From: Candidatus Aenigmatarchaeota archaeon
GTDB lineage: Archaea; Aenigmatarchaeota; Aenigmatarchaeia; CG10238-14; SCSR01
Assembly: GCA_016213525.1 (NCBI GenBank)
Contig: JACRAE010000001.1
Span: 11,268-75,267, forward strand
Direction: 5' to 3'
DNA: 64,000 nt
Part shown: positions 3,257 to 56,497 of the stretch, piece by piece
Layout of the letters: every line of letters starts with the position of its first letter
How positions within the stretch are numbered: position 1 is the first letter of the stretch
Position numbers and translations under genes: made by a program
Notes under the pieces: model-generated
The model's database searches: none
The model's input: only the letters and a program-made list of their open reading frames with translations
Told to the model about the DNA's origin: nothing

Positions 3257-3332
3257 TGAGATAATTTGAGGGGAGCAGGATATATCGTTTCGAATGGGAA
3301 AGTCTTAAGCCGCCCGACGGCAATTTATTCCC

Positions 3333-3794
3333 ATGGCAGTCGACAACAGGCCGCTCAACATCATCATAACCATAGTTGCCGTGACCTTCGCCTACCTCGT
3401 CTACGATTATTTCGTCGCCGTCCCGTCTGCACAGTCCCCGGGCGCGGATTCGTGCCTGTCGGACTCGGACTGCCCGGCGATATACTGCATAAGGGCGCCG
3501 TGCCCGCAGAGCGTGTGTGAAAACAACAGGTGCGTGATGACGGAGGCGCCCGAAGAGACACCGGTTCCTACGGAGCCGATTGAAACCGTGAGGGAGAGCG
3601 GCGGCTGCAAGATAGGCGGGTGCTCGGGACAGCTCTGCTCCGACGCGTCCGAGGGTCCGATGTTCACGACCTGCGAGTGGAGCGAGGCCTACGGGTGCTA
3701 CCAGGAGCTGGGAGTGTGCGAGAGGCAGGAGGGCGGGAAGTGCGGATGGACCCAGACGGACGTCTTGAAGCAGTGCCTATTGGAGAAGTCTTAG
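3333..3794 (+). CDS. membrane-anchored cysteine-rich secreted protein
   Basis: 153 aa with an N-terminal TM span and two Cys-rich modules. The C-terminal module, CKIGGCSGQLCS...CEWSEAYGCY...CERQEGGKCGW, resembles from memory the eight-cysteine-cluster domain family. Confidence 0.6.
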   Translation: MAVDNRPLNIIITIVAVTFAYLVYDYFVAVPSAQSPGADSCLSDSDCPAIYCIRAPCPQSVCENNRCVMTEAPEETPVPTEPIETVRESGGCKIGGCSGQLCSDASEGPMFTTCEWSEAYGCYQELGVCERQEGGKCGWTQTDVLKQCLLEKS

Positions 3795-3806
3795 ATAGTT
3801 TTCAGC

Positions 3807-5207
3807 TCAGCGTACCTTCTTCACTTCTATGAGCTGGCTCTCCTTGTGTCCCTTGAAGACGTCGGATATCACGACGACGAGGTCCTCGTTCTTCACGAAC
3901 CCGTCCGACTTCAGCGTCTCGATTGCGTTGTTGATGTTCTCCCTCGAGTGGTCCGAGAGGTCCGCCCTGTAGGAGTACACTCCCCTCGAGAGCTGGTTGA
4001 AGTGGTGCACCTGGTCGTACCTGGTGAACGCGAACACCGGGGTCGTCGGCCTGTACTTCGAGGTCAGGCGGGCTAGCCTCCCGGTGCTCGTGAAAACGAT
4101 TATGGCCTTCGCGCCGAGGTTCCTCGCCAGCATCGACGCGGCGAGCGTTATCTCCTCCCTTATGCTCCTCTTCTCCTCGCCCCTCAGAGGCATGACGAAC
4201 TTCTCTTCCCTCTCCATCCTGTTGCATATCTTGGTCATGGCCTCCACGCAGCGCACCGGGTACTTCCCCACGCTCGTCTCGGCGGAGAGCATTATCATGT
4301 CCGTCTTCTGGTAGACGGCCGTCGCCACGTCGGAGACCTCCGCCCTCGTGGGCACCGGGCTCTCGATCATCGACTCCATCATCTGGGTCGCGACTATGAC
4401 GGGCTTGCCCTTCTCCCTGCACCTGTTGATTATGTCCCTCTGCAGCAGCGGCACGTCCTCCAGCGGGACTTCGGCGCCGAGGTCGCCCCTCGCGACCATT
4501 ATGCCGTCCGACGCCTCGAGTATCTCGTCCAGGTTCTTCGCGCCGACCGCGTCCTCTATCTTCGCTATCAGGAACACGTAGGTCTTCAGCCTGTCTGCGA
4601 TCTTCCTGACCTTCTCCACCTCCGCGGCGTGCCTGATGAAGCTGAGGGTGAATATGCGCACGCCGTGCTTGATTGCGAACTCCACGTCCTCCATCTCCTT
4701 CTTCGTTATCCCGCTCAGGTCCATCTGCAGGCCGGGTATGTTCAGCGACTTCTTGCTCTTTATCGTGCCGGACGTGACGACCTTGCACAGGGCCCACTCC
4801 TCGTGGTGCTTCTCGACGAACATCTCGATGTTGCCGTCGTCGATGAAGATCTTCATGCCCTGCTTGAGCGCCTTGAATATGTTGGTGTTCATCTCCGCTC
4901 CCTTGTTTATGGTCCTCCTCACCTTGCCGAACCTGAGCTCGAAGTTCTCCCCGGCGACCACGTCTATCGGGCTCTTCAGCTCCTCTATCCTGAGCTCCGT
5001 GCCCTTCGTGTCCAAAATTACAGGTATCGGGAACAGCAGGCTCTCGTTCGCCTTCTCCACCTCCTTGATGTAGCCCATCATGGTCTTCATGTCGGCGTGG
5101 CTCATGTTGATCCTTGCGGCGTTCATGCCGGCCTTCGAGAGCTCGACTATCTTCTGCGCCGTGCCCGCCGCGGGGCCGAGCGTGCATATTATCTTCGTCT
5201 TTTTCAT
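3807..5207 (-). CDS. pyk: pyruvate kinase
   Basis: 466 aa. It shows the MKKTKIICTLGP...ARINMSHA N-terminus, the MVARGDLG motif and typical length. Confidence 0.95.
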   Translation of the reverse strand: MKKTKIICTLGPAAGTAQKIVELSKAGMNAARINMSHADMKTMMGYIKEVEKANESLLFPIPVILDTKGTELRIEELKSPIDVVAGENFELRFGKVRRTINKGAEMNTNIFKALKQGMKIFIDDGNIEMFVEKHHEEWALCKVVTSGTIKSKKSLNIPGLQMDLSGITKKEMEDVEFAIKHGVRIFTLSFIRHAAEVEKVRKIADRLKTYVFLIAKIEDAVGAKNLDEILEASDGIMVARGDLGAEVPLEDVPLLQRDIINRCREKGKPVIVATQMMESMIESPVPTRAEVSDVATAVYQKTDMIMLSAETSVGKYPVRCVEAMTKICNRMEREEKFVMPLRGEEKRSIREEITLAASMLARNLGAKAIIVFTSTGRLARLTSKYRPTTPVFAFTRYDQVHHFNQLSRGVYSYRADLSDHSRENINNAIETLKSDGFVKNEDLVVVISDVFKGHKESQLIEVKKVR

Positions 5208-37879: not shown

Positions 37880-38791
37880 ATGATAGAGGTGATTTTCCTC
37901 GGCACCGTGTCGGGCGTGCCCACAAGGGACAGAAACCACTCGGCCATTATACTGAACCACTACGGCGAGAGGAAGGAGACGATGCTCCTCGACTGCGGCG
38001 AGGGCACGCAGAGGCAGATGCTCATAGCCGGCGTCAACTTCATGGACATAGACAAGATATTCATCACGCACTGGCACGCCGACCATTTCGCCGGCCTCAT
38101 ACCGCTCATCCAGACGATGAACCTTGAGCGCAGGCAGAAGCCCCTGTATATTTTTGCGCCGGAGGCGGAGAGGTTCGTCTCTGACATAGTGGACATGGGG
38201 TACTTCGGCCTGAGGTTCGAGGTCGAGGCCGTCAACCTTCCCTTCGAGGGGGACGAGCCGTACAAGATACTCGAGACCGAGGACTTCGAGATGTACTCCA
38301 CCCCGACGGCGCACACCGTCCCTTCCGTGGCGTTCGCCCTGAAGGAGAAGGAGAAGTGGAGCATAGACCTGGAGAAGGTGAGGAAGATGGGCATGAGGCC
38401 CGGGTCCTGGATGAAGGCACTGAAGGAGAACGGCGAGGCAGAGGTCGGTGGTAAGAGGGTGGAGCTGAAGGACGTCGCATCTTCCGTCCCAGGCAAGAAG
38501 GTCGTCTATACCGGCGACACCAAGCCGTGCAGGAACGTCGAGAGTATATCCGGGGGAGCTGACCTCCTGATACACGACGGCACGTTCCTAGAGGCGGAGG
38601 AGGTCGGCGGGAAGAACCATGCGGACGCGGGCCAGGCGGCCGCCCTCGCCAAGGCGGCCGGCGTGAAGCAGCTGATACTGACCCACGTCAGCCGCAGGTA
38701 CACGGACACGAAGCCGCTCGAGGAGGAGGCGAGGAAGACGTTCGAGAACACGACGGTCGCCCATGACTTCATGGTAGTCATGCTGAAGTAG
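37880..38791 (+). CDS. rnz: ribonuclease Z (tRNA 3' endonuclease)
   Basis: 303 aa. It has the metallo-beta-lactamase motif ITHWHADH and typical short-form RNase Z length. Confidence 0.92.
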   Translation: MIEVIFLGTVSGVPTRDRNHSAIILNHYGERKETMLLDCGEGTQRQMLIAGVNFMDIDKIFITHWHADHFAGLIPLIQTMNLERRQKPLYIFAPEAERFVSDIVDMGYFGLRFEVEAVNLPFEGDEPYKILETEDFEMYSTPTAHTVPSVAFALKEKEKWSIDLEKVRKMGMRPGSWMKALKENGEAEVGGKRVELKDVASSVPGKKVVYTGDTKPCRNVESISGGADLLIHDGTFLEAEEVGGKNHADAGQAAALAKAAGVKQLILTHVSRRYTDTKPLEEEARKTFENTTVAHDFMVVMLK

Positions 38792-38887
38792 TGCCCCCGC
38801 CAGGATTTGAACCCGGATTTGAAGCTTTTCCCCGGCTTAGGCGGCCGGCCGGAAGCTTCCGTGCTATCCAAGTTACACCACAGGGGC
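38792..38887 (-). tRNA. tRNA-Arg (CCG) with an approximately 22-nt intron at 37/38
   Basis: GCCCCTG/CGGGGGC acceptor. The GAAGC...GCTTC anticodon stem encloses 29 nt beginning TTCCGG. The T-arm is CCGGG-TTCAAAT-CCTGG. The 3' end abuts the rnz stop codon. Confidence 0.8.
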
Positions 38888-45332: not shown

Positions 45333-46829
45333 CTAATCTCCGCCCAGGATGGCGTCGACGAACTTCTCGGAGTCGAACTCCTGGAAGTCCTTGTATTCCT
45401 GGCCCATCCCAAGGAAGACTATCGGCTTCTTCAGCTCGTGCGTGACGGACAGCACCGCCCCGCCCTTCTCGTTCACGTCCACCTTCGTGAAGATTACCGC
45501 GTCCACTCCAATCTCGCCGTAGGACCTGGCCTGCTCCATCGCGTCGTTCCCGGTAAGCGAGTCTATGACCAAAATCTTGATGTCTGGTTTGTTCACGCGC
45601 ACTATTTTCTTCATCTGCTCCATCAGGCTCGCGTTGGTGTGGGCCCTGCCGGCCGTGTCGGCGAGCACGAAGTCGAGCCCCTTCGCCTTCGCGTGCTCCA
45701 TCGCGTCGAATATCACTGCCGCCGGGTCTGCGCCGTATTTGTGCTTGACGACCTTCACCCCGATGTTGTTGGCGTGTATCTCGAGCTGCTCCTCGGCGCC
45801 GGCCCTGAACGTGTCCGCGGCCGCGAAGCAGCACGTGTATCCCCTGCCCTTCAGCCAGGACGCGGTCTTCGCCAGCGACGTGGTCTTGCCCGCCCCATTG
45901 AACCCCCAAAAAGCGACTAGAACGGGCTTCTTGGACTTGGCCGCGAAGTCGAAGTCCATCTTCGGCACGTCGAGTATCTCGAGCAGGCTCTTCCTGAAGG
46001 CCCCCATTATCACGTCCTTCTCCTTCCCCCTCTTTATTTCGGCGTCGACCAGCGCGTCTATCAAATCGTTCCCTATCTTGTCCGCCACCTCGACGGCGAC
46101 GTCCGCCTCGATCAGCGCCCCCTCCAGGTCGACGAGCATCGGGACGACCTCGTCCCTCGACATCTTCTTCTCCGTGACCTTCTTCACGACCTTTTCGGTC
46201 AGTTTCTTGAAGAACGACTTCTTCTCGTCCGCCGCCCCAGCCTTGATCTCAATCTCCTTGGAAACTCCCGGTGCCTCCTTTGAAACGTCCGCCGTCTTTT
46301 CGTGCGCGGCCTCTGGCAGAATTTCATCCGCAGCCCCGATCAAGTGCTCCTCGAACTTAGTTTCGGGTTCGGCGTGCCTCTGCTCTATAACGGGCTCCAC
46401 CGTCACATATTCCTTGGCGCCGTCCAGGCCGCCGGTGGGCTTCTCAAGAAGATCCTCGACCTCCACGAAACCGCCGCCCTCGGGCCTATGTTCGGACGTT
46501 TCAGACACCACAACTTCCTCCTCGGCTGGCGCCTCCTCCTTAGAATCCGGTTCCTCGGCGGCTCCCTCTGTTTTTCCAGACGGATGCTCGTCGAAGTCTA
46601 TCTCGATGACCTCCGCTTCGTCGTCGGCCTCCGTCTCCTCCGGCACGACCTCGAGGGTCGTTTCAACCCTTTCCGCCGGCCGCTGCACGGTTTCTATCTC
46701 TATCTCGCCCTGAATTTCTTGCTGCGGCGCCGCGGCGCTCTGGTCCGCCTGTTGACCCGATTTTTCCTTTACCTTGCCGGAGATCGAGTCTACGACCTCG
46801 GTCAGTTTTTTCTTGAGGAATCCAAACAT
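45333..46829 (-). CDS. ftsY: SRP receptor FtsY
   Basis: 498 aa. A long acidic N-terminal region precedes an NG domain with GFNGAGKTTS and DTAGR motifs. Confidence 0.95.
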   Translation of the reverse strand: MFGFLKKKLTEVVDSISGKVKEKSGQQADQSAAAPQQEIQGEIEIETVQRPAERVETTLEVVPEETEADDEAEVIEIDFDEHPSGKTEGAAEEPDSKEEAPAEEEVVVSETSEHRPEGGGFVEVEDLLEKPTGGLDGAKEYVTVEPVIEQRHAEPETKFEEHLIGAADEILPEAAHEKTADVSKEAPGVSKEIEIKAGAADEKKSFFKKLTEKVVKKVTEKKMSRDEVVPMLVDLEGALIEADVAVEVADKIGNDLIDALVDAEIKRGKEKDVIMGAFRKSLLEILDVPKMDFDFAAKSKKPVLVAFWGFNGAGKTTSLAKTASWLKGRGYTCCFAAADTFRAGAEEQLEIHANNIGVKVVKHKYGADPAAVIFDAMEHAKAKGLDFVLADTAGRAHTNASLMEQMKKIVRVNKPDIKILVIDSLTGNDAMEQARSYGEIGVDAVIFTKVDVNEKGGAVLSVTHELKKPIVFLGMGQEYKDFQEFDSEKFVDAILGGD

Positions 46830-46853: not shown

Positions 46854-47246
46854 TCAGTGCTCGTGCCCGTGGTCCATGCCGGCCGCCAGGCCCTCGAGCT
46901 CCTTTGTGGAGCTCTCTATCTCCTTCTGAATCTGGCCCAGTATGTTGTTCGCCTCGGACTTCCTGTCCTCGAGTATCTTCCTCGCCTCATCCGCGCTCTT
47001 CTCCAGCGCGACCTCGGCGCCTATCATGACGATTACCTTGCCCTCGTTCGAGGGCCTCGCATGCATGAACGCCTCCCCGCCTATGTGGAACAGCACGTCG
47101 CCCTTCGCCTTCGCCGCCTCCTCTATGCCCGCGGACGTGGCGTCTATCTCCGCAATCCTGTTCGCCAGCATCTCCCTCTGCTTCATCATGTTCTCTATCC
47201 TGGCCTCGAGCATCCTGAGGTGCATTGCCTGGTTCTCTTCCGACAT
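46854..47246 (-). CDS. pfdA: prefoldin alpha subunit
   Basis: 130 aa with coiled coils flanking a beta-hairpin core (VLFHIGGEAFMHA...VIVMIGAEVALE), adjacent to ftsY. Confidence 0.85.
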   Translation of the reverse strand: MSEENQAMHLRMLEARIENMMKQREMLANRIAEIDATSAGIEEAAKAKGDVLFHIGGEAFMHARPSNEGKVIVMIGAEVALEKSADEARKILEDRKSEANNILGQIQKEIESSTKELEGLAAGMDHGHEH

Positions 47247-47337
47247 GTGAATTATTGATGTGGCGGGACGGTTAAATATCCGCCCGGAAAGACGGGGAAA
47301 AACAATAAGTTAAGCCGCCCACAAGCTTTGTTCAGGC

Positions 47338-50300
47338 ATGGTAGCTAAGGTTCTTGTTGAAAGGGAGTCCCTTGACGTGGGGAGGGTCGCGCTCTTCGCG
47401 TCGGGCGCATTCGTCCTGATACTTCTGGTGCTGTATTTTTCGGGCGCTTTCCCGGAGCAGTCCGTCCAGAGCTTCCTGGAGAACGCAATTTCCCTGCCCG
47501 GCTACAGGGAGTTCCTCACGGTGAACCAGTTGCTCTCCTTCGGCGTCTTCCAGCACGGGGGCAACGGCTCAGTGGGGTACTACGGCATAAGCTCGTCGAA
47601 CTTCACCAATCAGAACGTGACGAACGCCACGCTCACCGGATACACCTGTTCCGGGACAAGCTGCAACTTCACGATTTTCCTGGACAACGACAACTCCACA
47701 AAAATATCGAACTACCTGAATTTCTCAGACACCATTCTGAACTATGTCCTATACAACGCCTCGGACGGCTCCCTCAGGAACGTGTCTGAGCTCGGCAAGA
47801 TAGGGCAGGGCAGCTGGAACGTCAGCAGTTCCAACCTGAACTTCACCCTGGCAGGAGGGGACGGCTTCGAATACGGCGTGCGCGACTCCCGACCGGGGGG
47901 CAGCTACTGGCTGGACGAGAACGGCTCGCTCTACGGTATGGTCAACATATCGAACGACTTCATCCGCGTCGGTATGACCGAGAGGAACTTGACGGTCTAC
48001 AACTCGTCAAATAAAATAATCTTCAATGCGAGCTTCGACGACGCGGTGAAGGTCGACGGGCAGAACCTGATCTCGCTCTACGGGGGCGGCGCGCAGAACA
48101 AGACCGTGTATTTCTTCGACTGGGCAAGCCAGACGTGGAAGATATGGCAGAAGGAATCGGAAAGTATAGTTGCAACCGGCGGCAACATAACCTACGCAGA
48201 CGGCTACACGATTCACACGTTCACCTCCAATGGGACGTTCAATGTCACGTCAGGTTCTGGCCCGGTCGAATATCTGGTTGTTGCAGGAGGCGGAGGAGGT
48301 CCCGGAAACTACGGAGGCGGAGGAGGTGCCGGAGGCTATCTGGCAGGAACGAACTACACAGTTACGCCTCAGTCTTATGCAATCACCGTCGGCGCCGGCG
48401 GCGCAGGAGGAATTGGCAACGATCAGGACGGGACGAAGGGGAGCAACTCGACTTTCGGCACGATTATCTCAAACGGCGGGGGAGGAGGAGATTCGGACCA
48501 GATTCTGAGCTCTGACAACAACGGCGGCTCTGGGGGCGGGCATAAGGCTACGACCGTGAGGACAAACGGAACTTCGGGGCAGGGATATGGAGGTGGTCTG
48601 CAGGTCGGCGGAGATCCCAACTATGCAAATGGCGGAGGCGGCGGCGCGGGCGAGCAGGGCAACGACGCTGTTTCCACTTCCGTCGCGGGTGCGGGCGGTG
48701 ATGGGTTGCAGTCGTCGATTTCTGGTGTGGCCACGTACTACGCCGGAGGCGGAGGCGGAGGGACTTGGAGCGGCGGGACCGTCGGCGCTGGTGGCTTGGG
48801 CGGTGGCGGCTCTGCTGGTGCGAGCGGCGGGGGGAACGGTGTGTCTGGAACTGCGAACACGGGCGGCGGTGGCGGTTCAGCTTCTTATGGCGGCGGCTAC
48901 TACAACGGTGGCTCGGGCGGTTCTGGTATCGTAATCATAAGATACAATAACACGCACGGAGTCCCCGACTGGCTCGACCCGAGGAACAAGCAGGAGTTCA
49001 AATGGAGGTACGTGCTAAGCCGCGATGCTTATCCGAATATAAATTTGACTTATCTGGTGACGGCGCACGATCCGTTTGTCAGGACTTTCGTGGACTCTGC
49101 CCAGAAACCGATTCTGGCAACCGATTTTTCAGACAACTCCACCTGGACGAAGAATGCCACCAAGGTGTACTTCACGAACGGGTATGTCCAAATAGACACG
49201 ACGACCGCCGGAACAGCCCCTCCGGACAGGATACATAGGAAGCTGCCATTCGAATTATCTGACAGGAGCTGGAAAGTGGATTTGGATATATGGCTCACGA
49301 GCGGCTCGTCGACTCAGCTCGGCCACGCCCTCGTGCTGTCCGACTCAGATCAGCTTCCATGGGGGTCCAATCAAGATTCCATCATGATATCCGGTCAGGG
49401 GGTCAACAGCTATCCAAAATGTCAGATATTTGTGGGATACAAGGACGGTGCGAGTGCTGGTGTACAATCAAGTGCCTTTTACAACCCTGGTACCGGACAA
49501 GGCTGTCAACAGTGGCATTACGTGACCGTCGAGAGGAACAGCCCGACGCGCATCACCCTCAGCGTATATTCCAACCCAGAAAGAACCAATTTAATTTACA
49601 TGGGATCTGACACCATACCGGCAACAATAGATGGACTGTCTTACGTCCAAGTGGTTCATGACGACGTTTACACAAACGAGGCCGGGCGTACGCAGACCAC
49701 CAGGGTGGACAACGTGACTCTATGGGACAGCTTCAACGGCAACAATGTCTCAATATCGTTCTCCCTCCCCGAGAACCGCACGTCCGTCACCACGGCCGAG
49801 CCCGGCCTGGTCGGGTACTGGAACCTCAACGAGGGATTTGGTCTAAACACAAGCGACACGAGCGGTTCTGGGAATACTTTCCTCTTAGGCAACGGGACCT
49901 CTGATTCGAGACCTGTCTGGGTGTCAAACTCGTCGTGTAGATTCGGTAACTGCCTAAGCTTTGACGGCGGTGATCAGGTAATGAAGAACAATCCGTCATT
50001 CCTTTCAGATCAGCAAGGCAGCGTCTCAATGTGGTTCAAATATTATGGGACAGGCGACACAGAGTCCTTGTTCGACGTCACAGACGGAGCGGCTAGCAAC
50101 GTTGATAGCTGGATAGTCTATCAGAGTACGGGGAACATACTACATCCAGCTCTGATTTACAATGACGGATCGGTAATACTGAACTCCCAGATAGGGAGCG
50201 CCATAACCGACACTAACTGGCACCATCTTGTGACAACTTCTGACGGGTCAACGATAAGGGCGTATCTTGACGGCACGGAGAGGTCGCTAACAATAGCCCA

Positions 50301-53300
50301 AGGCAGCAATACCGGACAGTGGTTCGGAGACCTTTCTTTGAACAGGGTAACAGTGGGTGCGCTTCAGTTCGATGTCACTGCCGGCTTCGATGGTCTCGTT
50401 GACGATGTTCGGGTCTATTCCAGACCACTCGGACTGAGCGAAGTCAATCAGCTCTACCTCACCGGCATCAACCAGCAGAAGCCGGGAATCTACTTCACCA
50501 AGAACAACGCGACAGACAACGAGGAGGTCCTGTTCGCAACGACGAACTTCAAGAACATCAACCACACGAGCTTCCAGATATTCTCCAACCAGACGAACTT
50601 CTTCGGCTTCAACTACACGTTCAACTCCACCATGAACCAGAACTTCATGTTCGCCCTCGGTACCATGGGCAGGATGAACACGACGGCCTTCAACCCGCAG
50701 AACAACGCGACACAGTTCTCGAACGAGCTGGTGGAGTCCGTGGCGAACAGCACGCTGACGTGGTATGACATCTTGAAGGGAACGGATTTCGAGGACGACT
50801 TCTCCAGATACTCGACCCAGGCCAGTGCGGACGCCGCGTGGGTCCCGACCGCCGACTACATGAACGTGAGCGTAACCAACGACAACTTGCAGTTCTTCGC
50901 CCAAAACGGGGCGGACAGGAAGATCTACTACGACTTCGGCAACAACATCTCGGACAGCTCGTGGGTTCTGAGGTTCAAAATGCGCTTCAGCAACATCAAC
51001 GCGGCTGCAGTGAACATATTTTTCCTCGGGATTTCCAGTACGACGGGCGCCGCGAACACGAATCAGAATTTCATACAAATAGGACCGTATTCTTCCGACT
51101 CCCTGCCTCACAACATCCTCGCCGGCGCGAACGTGAGGCAAGACCAGTCAACGTACGAGAGCCGACATTCGGACACGTACGTCGCTAACAAAGATTATTA
51201 CGTGGAACTCAGAAGGATTAGTCCCACTCTCGTGGACGCGGTTTGGTACAACGACGACGGGTACACGTCGGTTGCCCTGAAGAGGATAAACCTGACCAAC
51301 AGCGGCATGTCGAGCATAACCGGCCTCAGGTACCTGAAGCTCAATACTTATGTCACCCAAACTGGGAGCCACAGCGGGACGATAGACGACGTGCAGTTCT
51401 GGAACGGCGTGAGCTACGCCACTGGTCCGTCGACCAACGTGACCTTCAAGGGATTAGATGCATCGCAGCACAACTTCAACCAGAAGTTCAACTACGACGG
51501 CGGTGCTGTGGGAATATGGAGGTTGGACGAGGGCTCCGGGCTGAACGCGACGGACATAAGCGGGAACGGGAACACGGTGCCGATAAACGGCGCGACGTGG
51601 ATGAGCAACTCCTCATGCAGGTACGGCTCGTGCCTGAGCTTCGACGGGACCGACGACCACATACCGGTGCGCAGCGACGGGACCGGCTTCGACAGCGTCG
51701 CCTTCTGGGAGAACAAAGACTGGACCATATCAGCGTGGGTGAACAGGAAAGGCACGCCGTCCCCGCAATATTCTATAATATCCTGGGCCGACACATCCGG
51801 ATCCAACGACGGTTGGGGCCTGGAGCTGACAAGCGGTGGTCTCGTCGAATTCGGGGACTACGCCATGTCAACATATATCTACAGCACGTCGGCACTTAGT
51901 GTTGATACGTGGTACCATGTCGTTGTCAGGAAATCTGGAACTACCATAAAAATGTTTGTGAACGGCGTTGAGCAAGGATCCAAATCGCATACATCAACAT
52001 TCACTCAAGGCAGCCAGGAATTCGTAATCGGCGCAAGGAAGGAGCCCGGTTTTGACCGTTTCTGCAAATGTGTCCTCGATGATATAAGGATTTATCAGCG
52101 CGCCATGTCCGACACAGATATCCGTGACCACTACAATCACGAGGTCACGAGGTACTACGACGACTTCGGCACCGCCATCTCAGGAAAAACTTACAAATAT
52201 TTCGGCGTGGAAGACTCGAACACGACGCTGCAGCCGATTACGCCCGCGGGAACGGTGCTTCACTACAGGTTCAACGATAACTCGACCATCAAATTAACGG
52301 ACAGCTCGGGATATGGAAACAACGGATCTACGGTGAGCGGACCTGTATGGGCGGTCAATGGGTCATGTAAATTCGGCGGTTGCATGTACTTCAGCGGCGG
52401 GAGCGACTACATAGACCTGGGAAAGCCGGCTTCTCTCAGCTTACCAGATGCCATGACGTTTGCGGCATGGGTCTATCCGATTGGTACTGGCCAGCACATA
52501 GCCGGCAACTTCGACTCGGCTGGATTTAAGGCACAATGGAACATTCTCTTTTCTGACATATCCTCTGGTAGGTCCCTCATGCGTTTCCAGTCTTGTGGAG
52601 ACTCTGGATCGTGCGCTAATTATCTGAATCTAATAGGAACTTCCGCATATGCGACCTCGAACCAATGGAATCACGTTGCCGTAGTTAGGGACTCGGCTGA
52701 CGGCCAAGTGAGGCTCTACGTAAACGGAATTCAAGACGCGAATACAGCCACATCTTCTTCCAACAAAATAGCTAGCTATTCGAATGTAGGTACGAACGCT
52801 CTAGGGTCGGCCGGCACTTACTCGTCGTTTAAGTTCAGCGGATACATGGACGATGTTATTCTAGTGAACCGGTCGATTTCGACGGAAGAGATTAACAAAT
52901 TATATCTCGGTGGCTACCAGAGGCACGGCGGAGACCTCATTGGATGGTGGAAGTTCAACGAGAACACGACATCGGGCCCGACTTTGGACGGCGGTGGAAA
53001 TGGGAACACCGGAAACACCAGCGGAACGACCTGGATGAACAACGCGTCGTGTAAGATAAACGGGTGCCTGAGCTTCGACGGCGTGAACGATTACGTTAAC
53101 TTCTCGACCAATCCCGTGAAAGACAACCAGGACTACTCATTCTCAACCTGGTTCAAGGTCAATTCCCTCCCTTCTCTGAACGGCATACTGGTAAACACGT
53201 TCAGCTCCGACGTACATCAAGAAGACTTCCAAGTTAGGGTCGAGTCTGACGGTACCCTGACTTTCTGGAAACGCACCGACGGTTCAACTATAGACGCCGA

Positions 53301-54477
53301 CGCCGTGCAATGCGTGGGTTGTATACAGACCGGCGTGTGGTATAATTTAGTGGGGATTTACGATGACGCCTTGGCAAACGACCAGTCCAACCTTCCCGTG
53401 GGCTCGATGAAGCTGTATCTGAATGGCAACCTGACGGTTCAGACCCCGGTAGATACCCAGTATAATTTCGCCAGTCAGGGAAGAGGGGAGATGCAAATCG
53501 GAATCGACGACAGCTCGAACAGTTGGTACTTCAATGGAATCATTGACAATTTGAAGTTTTGGAAGCGCACGCTGACGGCGGACGAGGCTATGAACGAGTA
53601 CCTCGCAAACCAGGACCAACATTCAATTTACGGCAACATACACAGAATCGCCAGCGCGGAAGGGTTGCAGTCCGTGAGCTTCAACCTGACGGACCATGAC
53701 AGCCCGTATCAGAAGGACTATGATCAGAGATCCCTCCTGCTGGGCGTCAGCCAGATCGATACGACCGCTCCCGTCACGACGGTGCAGAGCCCGAGCAACA
53801 CTACCTATTCCGAGAGCTGGGTATGGGCGAACGTCACGGTCAGCGAGGACGTGCCGGCCGTCTACAGGAGCCTCGACTCGGGCGCGAACGTGAGCATGAC
53901 TAACAGCTCCGGGAACTGGAACGGCAACGTGTCGGGAATCTCCGACGGCGCGCACACCCTGATCTTCTACGCGACCGACGCCTCCGGCAACATAGCGGCG
54001 CCCGTGGGCGCGGGCTTCACGGTGAGCGCGACGGTCTCCATAAACATACTCAACATAAACAAGACTTTCAGCCCCCTCGTTCCCTGGTGGGTGGAGTACG
54101 TCAACATATCCGGCTACGCGGCCTACACAAACGGCACGCCTTTCGGCTCCGGGTCAATCAGGATGAACGAGACGAACGGCGGCCGCGAGACGACCCTGTG
54201 CTCGGTCAGCCCCAGCCCGTCGGGCTCCTTCTACTGCAACTTCACGTCGAAGTACCAGGTGGGCGACACCCCGATAGGGATATACGCCATCAGCGGCGGC
54301 ACCATAATCGGGAACGTGACCGGGGTGATGGAGACGAAGCCTAACTACGGCGAGAGGCCCGCGGGCCTGACGTCCAGGTCCGTCCTCGAGACGCCGTTCC
54401 CGATACAGGAGCCGTCCAGCATCATCAGGACGATAGTCGCGCGCCTCACCATATCCCGCGGTCCCGCCGGCAGCTAG
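47338..54477 (+). CDS. giant (2379 aa) membrane-anchored, sequon-rich surface protein: glycine-rich domain plus at least four LamG/ConA-like lectin-fold domains plus Ig-like C-terminal modules
   Basis: Single uninterrupted ORF with an N-terminal TM span (VALFASGAFVLILLVLYF). The Gly-rich domain is encoded at about 48180-48945 (YTIHTFTSNGTFNVTSG..VEYLVVAGGGGG ... GSGGSGIVIIRY). Four LamG-type units lie at about 49800-50460, 51500-52140, 52255-52915 and 52935-53610. Each has W.(L/F)(N/D)E...SC(R/K).G.C.(S/Y)FDG... and ends with DD(V/I)R(V/I)Y-type strands. Confidence 0.9.
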   Translation: MVAKVLVERESLDVGRVALFASGAFVLILLVLYFSGAFPEQSVQSFLENAISLPGYREFLTVNQLLSFGVFQHGGNGSVGYYGISSSNFTNQNVTNATLTGYTCSGTSCNFTIFLDNDNSTKISNYLNFSDTILNYVLYNASDGSLRNVSELGKIGQGSWNVSSSNLNFTLAGGDGFEYGVRDSRPGGSYWLDENGSLYGMVNISNDFIRVGMTERNLTVYNSSNKIIFNASFDDAVKVDGQNLISLYGGGAQNKTVYFFDWASQTWKIWQKESESIVATGGNITYADGYTIHTFTSNGTFNVTSGSGPVEYLVVAGGGGGPGNYGGGGGAGGYLAGTNYTVTPQSYAITVGAGGAGGIGNDQDGTKGSNSTFGTIISNGGGGGDSDQILSSDNNGGSGGGHKATTVRTNGTSGQGYGGGLQVGGDPNYANGGGGGAGEQGNDAVSTSVAGAGGDGLQSSISGVATYYAGGGGGGTWSGGTVGAGGLGGGGSAGASGGGNGVSGTANTGGGGGSASYGGGYYNGGSGGSGIVIIRYNNTHGVPDWLDPRNKQEFKWRYVLSRDAYPNINLTYLVTAHDPFVRTFVDSAQKPILATDFSDNSTWTKNATKVYFTNGYVQIDTTTAGTAPPDRIHRKLPFELSDRSWKVDLDIWLTSGSSTQLGHALVLSDSDQLPWGSNQDSIMISGQGVNSYPKCQIFVGYKDGASAGVQSSAFYNPGTGQGCQQWHYVTVERNSPTRITLSVYSNPERTNLIYMGSDTIPATIDGLSYVQVVHDDVYTNEAGRTQTTRVDNVTLWDSFNGNNVSISFSLPENRTSVTTAEPGLVGYWNLNEGFGLNTSDTSGSGNTFLLGNGTSDSRPVWVSNSSCRFGNCLSFDGGDQVMKNNPSFLSDQQGSVSMWFKYYGTGDTESLFDVTDGAASNVDSWIVYQSTGNILHPALIYNDGSVILNSQIGSAITDTNWHHLVTTSDGSTIRAYLDGTERSLTIAQGSNTGQWFGDLSLNRVTVGALQFDVTAGFDGLVDDVRVYSRPLGLSEVNQLYLTGINQQKPGIYFTKNNATDNEEVLFATTNFKNINHTSFQIFSNQTNFFGFNYTFNSTMNQNFMFALGTMGRMNTTAFNPQNNATQFSNELVESVANSTLTWYDILKGTDFEDDFSRYSTQASADAAWVPTADYMNVSVTNDNLQFFAQNGADRKIYYDFGNNISDSSWVLRFKMRFSNINAAAVNIFFLGISSTTGAANTNQNFIQIGPYSSDSLPHNILAGANVRQDQSTYESRHSDTYVANKDYYVELRRISPTLVDAVWYNDDGYTSVALKRINLTNSGMSSITGLRYLKLNTYVTQTGSHSGTIDDVQFWNGVSYATGPSTNVTFKGLDASQHNFNQKFNYDGGAVGIWRLDEGSGLNATDISGNGNTVPINGATWMSNSSCRYGSCLSFDGTDDHIPVRSDGTGFDSVAFWENKDWTISAWVNRKGTPSPQYSIISWADTSGSNDGWGLELTSGGLVEFGDYAMSTYIYSTSALSVDTWYHVVVRKSGTTIKMFVNGVEQGSKSHTSTFTQGSQEFVIGARKEPGFDRFCKCVLDDIRIYQRAMSDTDIRDHYNHEVTRYYDDFGTAISGKTYKYFGVEDSNTTLQPITPAGTVLHYRFNDNSTIKLTDSSGYGNNGSTVSGPVWAVNGSCKFGGCMYFSGGSDYIDLGKPASLSLPDAMTFAAWVYPIGTGQHIAGNFDSAGFKAQWNILFSDISSGRSLMRFQSCGDSGSCANYLNLIGTSAYATSNQWNHVAVVRDSADGQVRLYVNGIQDANTATSSSNKIASYSNVGTNALGSAGTYSSFKFSGYMDDVILVNRSISTEEINKLYLGGYQRHGGDLIGWWKFNENTTSGPTLDGGGNGNTGNTSGTTWMNNASCKINGCLSFDGVNDYVNFSTNPVKDNQDYSFSTWFKVNSLPSLNGILVNTFSSDVHQEDFQVRVESDGTLTFWKRTDGSTIDADAVQCVGCIQTGVWYNLVGIYDDALANDQSNLPVGSMKLYLNGNLTVQTPVDTQYNFASQGRGEMQIGIDDSSNSWYFNGIIDNLKFWKRTLTADEAMNEYLANQDQHSIYGNIHRIASAEGLQSVSFNLTDHDSPYQKDYDQRSLLLGVSQIDTTAPVTTVQSPSNTTYSESWVWANVTVSEDVPAVYRSLDSGANVSMTNSSGNWNGNVSGISDGAHTLIFYATDASGNIAAPVGAGFTVSATVSINILNINKTFSPLVPWWVEYVNISGYAAYTNGTPFGSGSIRMNETNGGRETTLCSVSPSPSGSFYCNFTSKYQVGDTPIGIYAISGGTIIGNVTGVMETKPNYGERPAGLTSRSVLETPFPIQEPSSIIRTIVARLTISRGPAGS

Positions 54478-54531: not shown

Positions 54532-55512
54532 ATGAAGAAGGAGATTTTCGCAGCGTTCGCGGCAGCCGCTTTTCTATTTTTGGCCTCCGGCCTGTCATAT
54601 GCCGACACCACTCTCGGGTCCGGCAACACGAGCTTCACGGTGAAGCCCATAATTTTGTCCGAGATACCGTTCGACGTGGACCAGAACCAGTACTGCGGGA
54701 ACCCGGACAGGCCGCAGACGCAGAACTTCAATTTGGCCCTGGTCGGCGACCCGAATTTCCTCAACATCAGGTGGAACGCGAAGGACCCCGGAGGGATAGA
54801 GAGGCAGATAGGCGTGAACTGCTGGCTCAACTGCGCGGCCGACCCCAATCAGCTGCTGTCGGACGTGAACCTATGCGCCGGCTACCAGAACTGCAGCTAC
54901 GTGGGCCCGACCGGGGACCACTCGTGCTCCATACAGATACCGAAGTACAACTTCAACGCGGGGAACAACGCCACTTGCAGGTTCTACGACACGGTGCTGC
55001 CTTCTCAGGGACTGGTTGTGGAGAACAGGTCGTTCTACACCGTTGACTACAAGGTCTTCACCCCGTCCGTCTCTCTGACCGTTGGGGCGGACGCCACGCT
55101 CCCGGTGGACGTCAAGTCGTTCGGCATACTCCCCGGCTACTACACGAACAACCTGACCGCGCTGCAGAACTCCCAGCTAGTCTTCATCAACGGCCCGTTC
55201 GCGAACACGGCGAACGTCAGGTGCGGCGAGAACGGCAGGACGTTCCCGACAATAAAATTCCTTTCCTCGGGCGAGATACCGTTCCTCATCTTGTCGAGGA
55301 GCTCCGTCGACACCACGGCGTGCATGGTCGACAGCGAGTGCGGCTATCTTTCTGACGGCTCGGCGCCTGGGAGGTGCGTGTCGAACGTGTGCTGGAAGAG
55401 CTACGACCTGAGCATACAAGCCGGGGTCGCGAGCCTTCCGGAGTACGGCATCATGGGCTTCGCCGCCATAATTTTATTGGCCTCGTTCCTCTTCATCAGG
55501 AAGGGAATCTAA
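54532..55512 (+). CDS. Cys-rich secreted protein with C-terminal membrane anchor
   Basis: 326 aa. It has a signal peptide (MKKEIFAAFAAAAFLFLASGLSYA) and a C-terminal TM span plus basic tail (IMGFAAIILLASFLFIRKG). AGGAG lies 8 nt upstream, and the gene starts 54 nt after the giant gene. Confidence 0.75.
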   Translation: MKKEIFAAFAAAAFLFLASGLSYADTTLGSGNTSFTVKPIILSEIPFDVDQNQYCGNPDRPQTQNFNLALVGDPNFLNIRWNAKDPGGIERQIGVNCWLNCAADPNQLLSDVNLCAGYQNCSYVGPTGDHSCSIQIPKYNFNAGNNATCRFYDTVLPSQGLVVENRSFYTVDYKVFTPSVSLTVGADATLPVDVKSFGILPGYYTNNLTALQNSQLVFINGPFANTANVRCGENGRTFPTIKFLSSGEIPFLILSRSSVDTTACMVDSECGYLSDGSAPGRCVSNVCWKSYDLSIQAGVASLPEYGIMGFAAIILLASFLFIRKGI

Positions 55513-55554: not shown

Positions 55555-55626
55555 GGGCTCATCGTCTAGTGGCTAGGACGCGACTCTTACAAAGTCGAGG
55601 CAGGAGTTCGATTCTCCTTGGGCCCA
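55555..55626 (+). tRNA. tRNA-Val (UAC)
   Basis: GGGCTCA/TGGGCCC acceptor, CGACT-CTTACAA-AGTCG anticodon arm, AGGAG-TTCGATT-CTCCT T-arm. Confidence 0.85.
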
Positions 55627-55684
55627 CTGAACCGGAAGCCTGCTCCTCACAAAGGCGTGTCAATCAGGAAAAACAAGTAAAAAT

Positions 55685-56497
55685 ATGAACAACGTAAGGA
55701 TTCCAGAAAGGATAGATCAGGAAGTAGCTTACCTTTGCGGCATGATTTGTGGAGACGGTCATTTGTGCGTTAGACCAAAGAAACATGAGTACTCCATATA
55801 CGTAACTGGGAATTTGAATAATGAGAGGGAGTTCTACGAAGACATTCTGAGTCCGATTTTTGCAAGAGTCTTTGGGATAGAACCTAAGGTGAAGATAAGT
55901 ACGCGGGATAACACTGTGAATTTGATTATCTATTCTAAATCTATTGTAAATTTCTTTTCAGAAAGATGCGGTGTACCAATAGGGAAAAAGGAACATAAGG
56001 TTAGGATACCAGATGTTTTCAGAGACACTGATTTAGTCAGAAGTTTCTTACAGGGCTTCGCTGACGCAGACCTGGGGCTGTGCCTGAAAAGAAGATACAG
56101 GGAAGTCCCTTATTATCCGGTAATAGGTGGCTCGTCGAAGAGTAAGCAGATTATTTTGGATGTATCAGAAGTCCTCATGGGGCTTGGAATAACATTCTCC
56201 TTGAGTTTGGACAGAACCAGTTACGATAATAGAATCAGAAAGGAAACAACGAGAAACATGATTAACATTTACGGGAGGAAGAATGTTTTCCTATGGATGA
56301 AGTTCATAGGTTATAGAAATCCAAAATATCTGAAGATTTTCGAGAAAACAAAAAATATAGCGGGGGTCAGATTTGAACTGACGACCTTTACCCCGCGCCT
56401 AGAGGCGCGTCCGGGTGTCCCAGAGACAACCTATGAGCCCGACGAGCAAACTGTGGCCATTGGGCCACTCCAGGCTGCTCTACCCCGCTATAGATAG
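55685..56497 (+). CDS. free-standing double-motif LAGLIDADG homing-endonuclease-like protein; the 3' end runs antisense through tRNA-iMet
   Basis: 270-aa ORF. Motif 1 is AYLCGMICGDGHL and motif 2 is FLQGFADADLGL, about 105 aa apart. The body (55685 to about 56350) is visibly AT-rich. The last 45 or so codons are the antisense of the tRNA gene. Confidence 0.75.
   Translation: MNNVRIPERIDQEVAYLCGMICGDGHLCVRPKKHEYSIYVTGNLNNEREFYEDILSPIFARVFGIEPKVKISTRDNTVNLIIYSKSIVNFFSERCGVPIGKKEHKVRIPDVFRDTDLVRSFLQGFADADLGLCLKRRYREVPYYPVIGGSSKSKQIILDVSEVLMGLGITFSLSLDRTSYDNRIRKETTRNMINIYGRKNVFLWMKFIGYRNPKYLKIFEKTKNIAGVRFELTTFTPRLEARPGVPETTYEPDEQTVAIGPLQAALPRYR
56358..56489 (-). tRNA. initiator tRNA-Met (CAU) with three putative introns (D-loop, 37/38, anticodon-stem/variable-loop junction)
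   Basis: The minus strand reads AGCGGGG-TA-GAGC-AGCCTGG[..GTGGCCCAATGGCCAC..]TTT-GCTC-G-TCGGG-CTCATA[GGTTGTCTCTGGGAC]A-CCCGG-[..CGCGCCTCTAGGCGCG..]AGGTC-GTCAG-TTCAAAT-CTGAC-CCCCGCT-A. It has the A1:U72 pair and the GGG/CCC anticodon stem. The total is 132 nt against about 75 nt expected, and a T-run follows. Confidence 0.7.

What the first reader, a model, noticed from the sequence alone, without database searches (positions are those of the whole stretch)
47338..54477. A 2379-aa membrane-anchored adhesin-like protein: glycine-rich domain plus a LamG/ConA-like array, extremely dense in N-glycosylation sequons
**Seen in sequence.**
- One uninterrupted 7.1-kb ORF with an N-terminal TM anchor.
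- At least 20 N-x-S/T sequons occur in the first 300 or so residues alone, and they continue throughout.
- A glycine-rich domain is bracketed by the characteristic YTIHTFTSNGTFNV...VEYLVVAGGGGG start and GSGGSGIVIIRY end.
- Four well-preserved LamG-type units each carry a conserved Cys pair (SCRFGNC, SCRYGSC, SCKFGGC, SCKINGC).
- Two more degenerate jelly-roll-like units end in VDNVTLWD and IDDVQFWNG.
- The C-terminus has Ig-like modules.

**Established knowledge.** Such glycine-rich and LamG combinations occur in phage fibres and in giant surface proteins of small-genome, host-attached prokaryotes.

**Inference.** This is the prime candidate for a cell-cell or cell-surface recognition machine in this organism. 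The exact architecture may be undescribed.
Basis: partly seen in the sequence, partly recalled or inferred. Interest (0 to 1): 0.62.

Follow-up and report, generated by a model that had tools for sequence, protein, structure and literature searches.

The report
Giant glycosylated lectin-array adhesin, DPANN archaeon
This is a real 2379-residue, probably sugar-coated surface protein of a tiny (662 kb) Aenigmatarchaeota archaeon, carrying a row of lectin-like binding modules. It is a known kind of DPANN surface protein, with one twist: here the binding array is fused onto a small secreted protein that stands alone at the same genomic site in close relatives.

Summary
ORF 47338-54477 is intact (2379 aa). 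It has one N-terminal hydrophobic segment, a full-length Pfam Gly_rich_2 domain, four Laminin_G_3 domains and 69 N-glycosylation sequons (38±5 expected by shuffling).

The two "degenerate jelly rolls" are distant LamG relatives (hhalign 87%). The Ig-like C-terminus is only weakly supported.

The protein is not unique:
- Every large secreted protein of this Aenigmatarchaeota (DPANN) genome is sequon-dense.
- AglB is present.
- Gly_rich_2 plus LamG giants are common in DPANN and CPR metagenomes (50 of 119 listed hits).
- LamG-rich glycosylated DPANN attachment proteins are already published.

New here:
- Two paralogues on another contig carry prepilin-type signals inside a type IV pilus locus, as this scan already noted on that DNA. 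This protein has a plain Sec-type N-terminus instead.
- Sequons avoid the LamG cores and crowd the spacer modules.
- The last ~147 residues are a rare, family-restricted "cap" domain. In a same-genus and a same-family genome it is a ~150-aa stand-alone gene at exactly this site, followed by the same membrane-anchored 326-aa partner gene.

The giant is therefore most likely a lineage-specific fusion of an adhesin array onto that small gene.

The parts
47338..54477 (+). Whole ORF: 2379 aa, 255 kDa before glycosylation, pI 4.7
47380..47445 (+). N-terminal hydrophobic segment (residues ~15-36). It is either a Sec-type signal-anchor or a long signal peptide with a possible SGA|F cleavage site. It has no K/R-G prepilin cleavage motif.
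   Evidence: Hydropathy. Comparison with paralogue N-termini. The anchor-versus-cleaved question is inference.
47614..48222 (+). N-module (residues 93-295). All-beta, 7.9 sequons per 100 aa, no Pfam family. It is the part best conserved with the two pilin-headed paralogues (68-70% identity).
48223..48945 (+). Gly_rich_2 domain (PF21722, residues 296-536): beta-strands alternating with GGGG runs, with variable stretches between the Gly runs.
48958..49767 (+). C' linker module plus C core (residues 541-810), a distant LamG-like jelly roll ending in VDNVTLWD.
49768..50445 (+). LamG unit 1, with the SCRFGNC Cys pair (866-872) and Laminin_G_3 at 877-1036. No sequon in the core.
50446..50769 (+). 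E' spacer module (residues 1037-1144): 7.4 sequons per 100 aa, GC3 0.93, strongly conserved after L1-type LamG units in relatives.
50770..51462 (+). E core (residues 1145-1375), homologous to the C core, a distant LamG-like jelly roll ending in IDDVQFWNG.
51463..53586 (+). LamG units 2, 3 and 4 (residues 1376-2083). Each has an SC(R/K)xGxC Cys pair and a Laminin_G_3 core. There are only 3 sequons in the three cores. The fold search gives neurexin LNS and laminin LG arrays.
53749..54033 (+). Ig-like spacer domain (residues 2138-2232). The Big_13 match is weak. It occurs as three tandem copies in a same-genus genome.
54034..54474 (+). C-terminal 'cap' domain (residues 2233-2379) with the conserved tail ...YG..P.G...RSV.E.P..IQEPS..I....R..I.R. 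In relatives it is a stand-alone ~150-aa secreted protein at this same locus.
54532..55512 (+). Neighbouring 326-aa gene: signal peptide, 12 Cys, C-terminal TM plus RKGI. Its adjacency to the cap gene (or to the giant's tail) is conserved in four other genomes or contigs. It is a candidate partner, not proven.
46854..47246 (-). Divergent prefoldin gene. Together with ftsY (45333-46829) it marks the syntenic site.

Best explanation
**What it is.** The gene encodes a cell-surface, heavily N-glycosylated, beads-on-a-string lectin-array adhesin of an Aenigmatarchaeota (DPANN) archaeon.

**How it probably works (inferred).**
- It is exported by the Sec pathway.
- It is most likely held in the membrane by its uncleaved N-terminal hydrophobic segment, with about 2300 residues outside the cell.
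- Glycan-covered spacer modules (N-module, E', linkers, Ig-like) hold out binding modules that carry few sequons (the LamG and C/E cores) or only moderately many (Gly_rich_2). These are one Gly_rich_2 domain, two distant LamG-like jelly rolls and four canonical Laminin_G_3 domains, each of those four with a small disulfide loop.
- The binding modules would attach to glycans or proteins on another cell, presumably the host, or on a surface.

**Where it came from (shown by comparison).**
- The modules are shared with two paralogues that carry prepilin-type signals and lie in a type IV pilus locus.
- This copy sits in a housekeeping neighbourhood. It most likely arose when such an adhesin array was fused in frame onto a small, family-conserved, secreted 'cap' protein.
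- That cap gene normally stands alone between the prefoldin gene and the gene for a membrane-anchored 326-aa protein.
For: - **Real gene with confident domains.**. Foldseek on the better model returns neurexin LNS1-6 and laminin LG arrays.
- **Organism.** Archaeal DPANN context: Pus10, SRP54, FtsY and aEF1a as neighbours, aEF1a at most 79% identical to Aenigmatarchaeota MAGs, genome 662 kb.
- **Glycosylation is plausible.** AglB/STT3 is present. Sequons are enriched (z = 5.8). All N-terminally hydrophobic giants are 7-24 times denser in sequons than the genome median.
- **Sequons are partitioned.** LamG cores have 0.46 per 100 aa against 3.8 elsewhere (p = 1e-6). The N-module has 7.9 and E' has 7.4.
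- **Paralogues.** The N-module is 68-70% identical to the paralogues, while the LamG units are only 25-43% identical. Module order is shuffled between paralogues and relatives.
- **Cassette turnover.** A close relative (P0122) keeps the tail at 89% identity but has one divergent LamG where this protein has two. The syntenic G088 orthologue lacks the Gly domain. GC3 is 0.60 in the Gly/C/LamG1/LamG3 modules and 0.80-0.93 in the spacer and cap modules.
- **Pilus link of the paralogues.** They have KG|AS-type signals, weak DUF7289 hits, and ATPase and PilC-like neighbours. A prepilin peptidase is encoded elsewhere.
- **Fusion.**
  - The cap domain is always C-terminal, and 21 of 46 representatives are ~155-aa signal-peptide proteins.
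  - It is single-copy in 26 of 69 genomes of the family.
  - G096 (same genus) and G089 have prefoldin | cap (148 or 155 aa) -> 326-aa homologue at the identical site.
- **Literature.** LamG-rich, N-glycosylated, organism-specific DPANN proteins are proposed as host-attachment systems, some of them next to pilus loci (PMC7443923, PMC5498576).
Against: - There is no expression, localisation or binding data.
- Both AlphaFold models are poor (mean pLDDT 47 and 57). The folds of the N-module, Gly_rich_2, C/E cores and cap are therefore not established structurally.
- Whether the N-terminal segment is an anchor or a cleaved signal cannot be decided. Relatives G058 and G059 start with signal-peptide-like N-termini (MKK n-region, hydrophobic stretch, SVYS).
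- The host and the ligand are unknown.
- LamG_3 domains also occur in non-adhesive contexts such as glycosidase appendages.
- Sequon depletion in the LamG cores is only modest against local composition (3 observed, 8.0 +/- 2.4 expected; p about 0.02).
- No independent assembly or read check covers the 5' 5.5 kb.
Confidence: 0.7

Rival explanations
1. Reverse tethering. The N-terminal segment is a cleaved Sec signal. The protein is held on the cell by its C-terminal cap domain, which docks non-covalently onto the membrane-anchored 326-aa Cys-rich protein encoded next door. The N-module and Gly-rich end would then point outward. A variant is that the protein is tethered at both ends.
For: - The stand-alone cap proteins have a signal peptide but no anchor, so they need something to hold them on the cell.
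- The order cap -> 326-aa gene is conserved in G096, G089, G086, the metagenome contig L126 and here.
- The fusion of the adhesin to the cap is a Rosetta-stone hint of joint function.
- A possible SGA|F cleavage site follows the hydrophobic segment.
- Sec-type signal peptides precede the N-module in G058 and G059.
Against: - In the pilin-headed paralogues the N-module is next to the pilin head, which is the filament- or membrane-proximal end.
- The hydrophobic segment is about 22 residues long, more like a transmembrane helix than a signal-peptide core.
- Cap and 326-aa genes are not adjacent in many genomes (G085, G088, G110-G113). Their co-occurrence is weak: 18 of 26 cap-positive against 23 of 43 cap-negative genomes of the family.
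- A T6 run and an own Shine-Dalgarno sequence lie between the two genes, which argues against strict co-transcription.
- No interaction was tested.
Confidence: 0.25
2. It is a structural envelope (S-layer or sheath) glycoprotein, not a specific adhesin.
For: It is large, acidic (pI 4.7), sequon-rich and secreted. Archaeal S-layer proteins share these traits.
Against: - There are three divergent paralogues with shuffled modules.
- Distribution is patchy: the N-module occurs in only 10 of 370 other genomes of the phylum.
- The whole array is absent from a same-genus genome at this site.
- Lectin-type domains dominate the protein. An essential lattice protein would be conserved and single.
Confidence: 0.07
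3. Like its paralogues, it is a pilus-borne (class III signal) modular pilin displayed on a type IV pilus.
For: The paralogues P0002 and P0003 and the relatives P0005, P0006, G085 and G141 have KG|(A/I/V)S signals and DUF7289-like heads followed by the same N-module. A prepilin peptidase and two pilus loci exist in the genome.
Against: - This protein lacks the 230-260-aa head.
- It has no K/R-G motif before the hydrophobic segment (the sequence is VGR|V).
- It gives no DUF7289 hit.
- It lies far from both pilus loci, and so does its syntenic G088 orthologue.
Confidence: 0.05
4. It is a polysaccharide-capturing protein for nutrient scavenging (a CBM-like lectin array) rather than a cell-cell adhesin.
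For: LamG_3/ConA-like modules resemble carbohydrate-binding modules of sialidases and arabinanases in the fold search.
Against: - No catalytic domain appears anywhere in the protein.
- No transporter or glycosidase genes are nearby.
- The genome is too reduced for a free-living polymer degrader.
Confidence: 0.08

Closest known systems
Organism-specific LamG/ConA-like lectin proteins of DPANN archaea (Nanohaloarchaeota: La Cono et al. 2020, PMC7443923; 'Ca. Mancarchaeum' Mia14: Golyshina et al. 2017, PMC5498576)
   Same: - They are large, secreted, LamG-rich proteins with many N-glycosylation sites.
- They are strain-specific and expanded into paralogues.
- Some are encoded next to type IV pilus loci.
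- They are proposed as host-attachment systems.
   Different: - The organism is a different phylum (Aenigmatarchaeota).
- This protein adds a Gly_rich_2 domain, two private modules (N, E') and a fused family-specific cap domain.
- None of the published proteins has been characterised biochemically, so the comparison is between predictions.
Modular type IV pilins with lectin modules (Streptococcus sanguinis PilC and PilB), recalled from my own knowledge and also named by earlier scan note e1-2781945
   Same: The paralogues P0002 and P0003 combine a prepilin-type N-terminus with ConA/LamG-type lectin modules and lie in a pilus locus.
   Different: - The protein examined here lacks the pilin head and the cleavage motif.
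- The archaeal proteins are about ten times larger and carry arrays, not a single module.
TafC, the LamG-bearing tip subunit of haloarchaeal Tat-fimbriae (PMC11821415)
   Same: It is an archaeal surface filament component whose laminin-G-like domain is modelled pointing outward as the adhesive end. It is the only NCBIfam family hit.
   Different: - The score is 68 bits against a cut-off of 410.
- The match covers the LamG part only.
- The protein has no twin-arginine signal and no TafA-like donor-strand domain.
Glycine-rich (polyglycine-II lattice) receptor-binding domains of phage fibres (Pam3 gp24, S16 gp38) and of ALK/LTK receptors (PMC9608196)
   Same: The sequence logic is the same: beta-strands that run out into GGGGxGG loops, with conserved Gly runs and variable loop tips. 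PHROG tail and virion-structural families hit the protein.
   Different: - There is no detectable sequence relation to any solved structure, even with a profile at E <= 1.
- The model is too poor to test the fold.
- The domain sits inside a monomeric-looking array, not at the tip of a trimeric fibre.
SPEARE proteins of Nanohaloarchaeota (named in PMC7443923)
   Same: They are giant DPANN surface proteins thought to mediate host attachment.
   Different: No protease or nuclease domain was found here. There is no sequence relation.

Membership tests
Laminin_G_3 (PF13385, ConA-like lectin/glucanase superfamily) | Profile match above the gathering score over the full ~150-residue domain | tested here: met
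   264 bits in total against a cut-off of 27.6. Four stretches score 67-95 bits each and cover profile positions 1-151. Foldseek gives LNS/LG arrays.
Gly_rich_2 (PF21722) | Full-length profile match above the gathering score | tested here: met
   85-92 bits against a cut-off of 24.3, profile positions 1-225 of 226, residues 296-536.
Polyglycine-II lattice receptor-binding domains (S16 gp38, Pam3 gp24, ALK GlyR) | Sequence homology to a solved member | tested here: not met
   A profile of 7 Gly domains against all PDB sequences gives 0 hits at E <= 1.
Polyglycine-II lattice receptor-binding domains (S16 gp38, Pam3 gp24, ALK GlyR) | Beta-sandwich whose strands extend into a hexagonal lattice of Gly-rich extended helices | tested here: inconclusive
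   In the AF2 model the Gly-rich region has pLDDT 36-74, and Foldseek returns no such hit. The alternating strand/GGGG pattern is present.
Archaeal type IV pilin-like proteins (class III signal) | K/R-G/A cleavage motif immediately before the N-terminal hydrophobic helix (FlaFind-type consensus, from my own knowledge) | tested here: not met
   The query reads ...DVGR|VALFASG..., with no K/R-G. The paralogues and P0005/P0006 have KG|AS and KG|IS.
DUF7289 (PF23960) pilin-like head | Profile match at the N-terminus | tested here: not met
   No hit in the query. There are weak hits of 19-26 bits in P0002, P0003 and P0005, and 30.9 bits in a small gene between the paralogues.
TafC family fimbrial protein (NF052521) | Score above the curated cut-off over the whole model | tested here: not met
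   68 bits against a cut-off of 410. Only profile positions 186-370, the LamG part, match.
Big_13 bacterial Ig-like domain (PF19077) | Score above the gathering threshold | tested here: not met
   19.4-20.7 bits against 27 for residues 2167-2228. The stand-alone cap of G096 also scores 19 bits. An Ig-like fold is plausible but unproven.
SPEARE proteins | Serine protease and restriction-endonuclease-like domains within a giant adhesin | tested here: not met
   No such Pfam or NCBIfam hits.
Archaeosortase substrates (PGF-/PEF-CTERM) | C-terminal motif plus TM helix plus basic tail, and an archaeosortase gene | tested here: not met
   The query has no C-terminal hydrophobic segment. There is no Exosortase_EpsH hit in the genome, although that control is weak.
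N-glycoprotein (AglB-dependent) | Oligosaccharyltransferase present and sequons enriched in the exported part | tested here: met
   An STT3 hit of 75.6 bits lies in a 784-aa open frame (780-aa ORF) with multiple predicted TM segments. Sequon z = 5.8. Actual glycosylation is not testable with these tools.
DGR (diversity-generating retroelement) target | Reverse transcriptase plus template/variable repeat pair | tested here: not met
   No RVT_1 hit in the genome. blastn finds no near-identical repeat of any gene segment. The genome is 89% complete.

The most novel reading that the evidence does not exclude
The small secreted cap protein and the neighbouring membrane-anchored 326-aa Cys-rich protein form a conserved two-part docking device of this Aenigmatarchaeota family. 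In some lineages, exchangeable giant lectin arrays have been grafted onto it by gene insertion and in-frame fusion. The arrays would be borrowed from pilus-displayed adhesins. G088 would be the unfused intermediate and this genome the fused state. This would be a sortase-free, pilus-independent way for ultra-small archaea to display rapidly changing host-binding heads on a constant base. It resembles what this scan has noted as 'constant tail + small tail copy + anchored partners' cassettes in other DPANN lineages.
Probability: 0.25. Interest if true: 0.65.

Novelty: new variant of a known kind. Interest (0 to 1): 0.42.

Why it matters
How DPANN archaea recognise and hold on to their hosts is largely unknown. 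The candidate proteins are huge, fast-evolving and uncharacterised.

This case adds three testable points.
- One adhesin module set exists in the same cell in a pilus-type form and in a Sec-type form.
- Predicted glycosylation is concentrated on the spacer modules, while the lectin cores are nearly free of sequons. This tells an experimenter which pieces to express for binding assays.
- A clean comparative series shows a giant adhesin being assembled by fusion onto a conserved small gene. The series runs from a stand-alone 150-aa gene, through adjacent genes, to the fused 2379-aa gene. It nominates the cap domain and the 326-aa neighbour as a possible display base.

None of this changes the general picture already in the literature, so the importance is moderate.

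Tried and rejected
- **AlphaFold2.** Both halves were modelled with shallow alignments built from paralogue and locus fragments. Mean pLDDT was 46.8 and 57.1, too poor to assign folds to the N-module, Gly_rich_2, C/E cores or cap.
- **Foldseek.** Searches on both models recovered only LamG-type jelly rolls.
- **PDB sequence searches.** The whole protein and a Gly-domain profile gave no hits.
- **Viral origin.** PHROG families hit: phrog_2295 at 228 bits over residues 44-538, plus virion-structural and tail families. tblastn against 50,697 phage records found nothing. An IMG/VR scan found nothing. The neighbours are housekeeping genes. A provirus reading was rejected.
- **Class III signal in the query.** Rejected on the sequence motif. 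NCBIfam on the N-terminal heads gave nothing useful.
- **DGR-driven variation.** No reverse transcriptase and no template repeat.
- **Recent gene conversion with the paralogues.** DNA identity is at most 93%, over stretches of about 100 bp or less.
- **Archaeosortase anchoring.** No C-terminal TM and no EpsH-family hit.
- **Absence of the giant in same-genus MAGs.**
  - At first this looked uninformative, because both contigs break inside ftsY.
  - G096 contig C33 then showed that the site truly holds only the small cap gene.
- **P0122 context.** It could not be looked up, because the protein came from a tool whose hits are not accepted by the look-up of encoding contigs. I did not try.
Full report
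**1. The observation**

The window holds a single ORF at 47338-54477 (+), 2379 aa, with an ATG start.

- A TATA-like TTAAATAT lies at 47272-47279, and an AATAAGTTAA lies about 30 nt before the ATG.
- The only strongly hydrophobic stretch is at residues ~15-36. There is none at the C-terminus.
- There are 69 N-x-S/T sequons: 19 in the first 300 residues and 20 by residue 302. Shuffling gives 38.2 ± 5.3 (z = 5.8), and the reversed motif occurs 33 times.

**2. Domains**

Pfam gives the following:

| Domain | Residues | Score |
|---|---|---|
| Gly_rich_2 (full length) | 296-536 | 85-92 bits; cut-off 24.3 |
| Laminin_G_3 #1 | 877-1036 | 67 bits; cut-off 27.6 |
| Laminin_G_3 #2 | 1437-1595 | 95 bits |
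| Laminin_G_3 #3 | 1687-1853 | 77 bits |
| Laminin_G_3 #4 | 1914-2083 | 82 bits |
| Big_13 (Ig-like) | 2167-2228 | 19-21 bits; cut-off 27, so sub-threshold |

- Each SC(R/K)xGxC Cys pair lies just before a LamG core, inside the ~230-aa repeat unit.
Their cores, ~587-808 and ~1145-1370, are homologous to each other (20% identity over 243 aa, E 0.002).
- A joint profile of these cores matches the C-terminal third of a LamG profile built from the same proteins (hhalign probability 87%, E 4e-6). The match includes the closing G-x-(I/V)-D-(D/N)-V-x-(F/L)-W strand.
- The N-module (93-295) is unrelated to LamG.
- AlphaFold2 on both halves gave poor models (mean pLDDT 46.8 and 57.1).
  - Only LamG2 reached pLDDT 70-93.
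  - Foldseek returned neurexin LNS1-6, laminin LG and other lectin-type jelly rolls. It returned nothing for the unknown modules.
- No solved structure matches by sequence, even with a Gly-domain profile at E ≤ 1.

**3. Organism and proteome context**

- The neighbours are archaeal housekeeping genes: Pus10, SRP54, cyclophilin, FtsY, prefoldin, NUDIX and aEF1α.
- The genome is 662 kb in 7 contigs, 56% GC and 89% complete.
- The aEF1α protein is at most 79% identical to Aenigmatarchaeota MAGs.
- AglB/STT3 is encoded.
- Sequon density is not special to this gene. The genome median is 0.26 per 100 aa, but nearly all of the ten largest sequon-dense ORFs, most with an N-terminal hydrophobic segment, have 2.9-6.2 per 100 aa. 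These include a 9013-aa ORF with 558 sequons.
- This protein has the lowest sequon density of those giants. Together they take about 10% of the genome.

**4. Where the sequons sit**

- The four LamG cores hold 3 sequons in 656 aa (0.46 per 100).
- The rest of the protein holds 66 sequons in 1723 aa (3.8 per 100). The binomial p is 1e-6. Against local composition the expectation is 8.0 ± 2.4 with 3 observed (p ≈ 0.02).
- The N-module (7.9 per 100), E' module (7.4), linkers (up to 6) and Ig-like domain (5.3) are the dense parts.
- Inference: glycans coat the spacers and leave the lectin faces free.

**5. A paralogous, modular family**

- Two paralogues lie on contig C3, of 2265 and 2661 aa. They share the N-module at 68-70% identity, but the LamG units at only 25-43%.
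- Module order differs:
  - This protein: N-Gly-C-L-E-L-L-L-Ig-cap.
  - The paralogues: head-N-Gly-C-L-E'-Gly-L-L and head-N-L-C-L-E'-L-L-L-C-L.
- Both paralogues, and the external relatives P0005 and P0006, start with KG|AS or KG|IS followed by a hydrophobic helix. This is the archaeal class III (prepilin) pattern. They give weak DUF7289 hits.
- The paralogues lie downstream of a PilB-type ATPase, two PilC-like genes and small class III proteins. P0006 has the same locus layout. A prepilin peptidase and a second pilus locus exist elsewhere in the genome.
- This agrees with an earlier scan note on that DNA (e1-2781945) and with the remark in PMC5498576 that some DPANN LamG genes adjoin pilus loci.
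- The protein studied here lacks the 230-260-aa head and has no K/R-G motif (VGR|V). It lies in a housekeeping neighbourhood, so it is a Sec-type version.
- Both N-terminus types recur with the N-module in other genomes.

**6. Distribution and cassette turnover**

- The database search gave 258 hits. None is a full-length orthologue.
- 50 of the 119 listed hits combine Gly_rich_2 with Laminin_G_3. The few named LamG-bearing hits are a Woesearchaeota archaeon and CPR bacteria (Woesebacteria, Moraniibacteriota); only the Moraniibacteriota hit also carries Gly_rich_2.
- The N-module occurs in only 10 of 370 other genomes of the phylum.
- A close relative's fragment (P0122) keeps the L2-L3 linker and the last ~290 residues at 80-89% identity. 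It has one divergent LamG (≤40% identity) where this protein has two.
- The syntenic orthologue in G088 goes straight from the N-module to C', without a Gly domain.
- GC3 is 0.60 in the Gly, C-core, LamG1 and LamG3 modules. It is 0.80-0.93 in the N, E', Ig-like and cap modules. The genome mean is 0.77 ± 0.12.
- No reverse transcriptase and no near-identical repeats were found. The variation is therefore not DGR-driven and is not recent gene conversion.

**7. The C-terminal cap and the origin of the gene**

- Residues 2233-2379 belong to a rare domain family with 46 representatives among 1.84 billion proteins. The domain always ends the protein. 21 of the representatives are ~155-aa proteins made of a Sec signal peptide plus this domain.
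- The conserved pattern is WW.D…C…C.F..P…V.P.YG..P.G…R.V.E.P..IQ…G.I…R…W(R/K)G.
- Within the phylum the domain is confined almost entirely to this organism's family (26 of 69 genomes) and is single-copy. The only copy in this genome is the giant's tail.
- In same-genus G096 the order is prefoldin | cap (148 aa) → 326-aa homologue → NUDIX → aEF1α. In G089 it is ftsY-prefoldin | cap (155 aa) → 326-aa homologue. This is exactly the site of the giant here.
- G086 and the metagenome contig L126 keep the cap (or the giant's tail) next to the 326/328-aa gene.
- In G088, a giant with the same type of start lies next to prefoldin and runs off its contig. Another contig carries the end of a LamG giant, a 107-aa ORF and a stand-alone 220-aa cap. 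This is a plausible unfused intermediate, but the contig join is untested.
- The simplest reading is that about 2230 residues of adhesin array were inserted at this site and fused in frame onto the small cap gene.

**8. Mechanism**

- Shown: the protein has an export signal, lectin-type arrays, a glycosylation-competent host cell, modular turnover, and a fusion to the cap.
- Inferred: it is an N-terminally anchored fibre whose glycosylated spacers present LamG and Gly-rich heads to ligands on a host cell.
- Main alternative (about 25%): the signal is cleaved, and the cap docks onto the membrane-anchored 326-aa neighbour.
  - The conserved gene pair and the fusion speak for this.
  - Against it are the paralogues' polarity, the non-adjacency of the pair in many genomes, weak co-occurrence, and a T6 run plus an own Shine-Dalgarno sequence between the two genes.
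- The Gly_rich_2 domain has the strand/GGGG alternation and variable loop tips of phage and ALK glycine-rich receptor-binding domains (PMC9608196). Neither sequence nor model confirms that fold.

**9. Verdict**

The gene is real, and the domain calls are right. It is a new variant of an already described kind of protein: the large, LamG-rich, N-glycosylated, lineage-specific surface proteins of DPANN archaea (PMC7443923, PMC5498576).

It is not the unique or prime recognition device of this cell. Its most interesting aspect is evolutionary: a pilus-type adhesin array re-used in Sec-type form and grafted onto a conserved small secreted protein.

Noticed in passing
G000 contig C2:97325-124366 (outside the window): A 9013-aa ORF with an N-terminal hydrophobic segment and 558 sequons (6.2 per 100 aa). 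Together with about nine other sequon-dense giants it takes roughly 10% of a 662-kb genome.
   Followed up: no
G000 contig C3:193104-217357 and C4:14602-21065 (outside the window): There are two type IV pilus-like loci, each with an ATPase, two PilC-like genes and small class III-signal proteins. The C3 locus carries the two pilin-headed LamG giants. A single prepilin peptidase lies at C3:~111896.
   Followed up: partly
window 54532-55512: The 326-aa Cys-rich protein (12 Cys, signal peptide, C-terminal TM plus RKGI preceded by LPEYG) has homologues in 41 of 69 genomes of the family. In several of them it sits directly after the cap gene. It has no Pfam family.
   Followed up: partly
window 55555-56497: In this genome tRNA-Val and the LAGLIDADG gene lie between the 326-aa gene and NUDIX. 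In G096 only ~280 bp lie between the 326-aa and NUDIX genes, too short for an 813-bp endonuclease gene, and in L126 no gene was called in the ~720-bp gap. The endonuclease gene therefore looks like a lineage-specific insertion.
   Followed up: no
window 47467-48951 (residues 44-538): PHROG family phrog_2295 (unknown function) matches both the N-module and the Gly-rich domain at 228 bits. Yet no GenBank phage record and no IMG/VR contig gives a BLAST-level hit. What that viral family is remains unexplained.
   Followed up: partly
window 47338-54477: GC3 is mosaic by module: 0.60 in the Gly, C-core, LamG1 and LamG3 modules, against 0.80-0.93 in the N, E', Ig-like and cap modules. The genome mean is 0.77. 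This matches the separate first-reader note on a compositional mosaic.
   Followed up: partly
L123 (G088:C14) 2637-3968: A 443-aa secreted, sequon-rich protein with a repeated 'DTNLYR' motif sits between prefoldin and the giant in G088. It has no counterpart here.
   Followed up: no
window 38791-38887: ARAGORN reads a 97-nt tRNA with a four-base 'anticodon'. Rfam calls it a tRNA, so it probably carries an intron.
   Followed up: no
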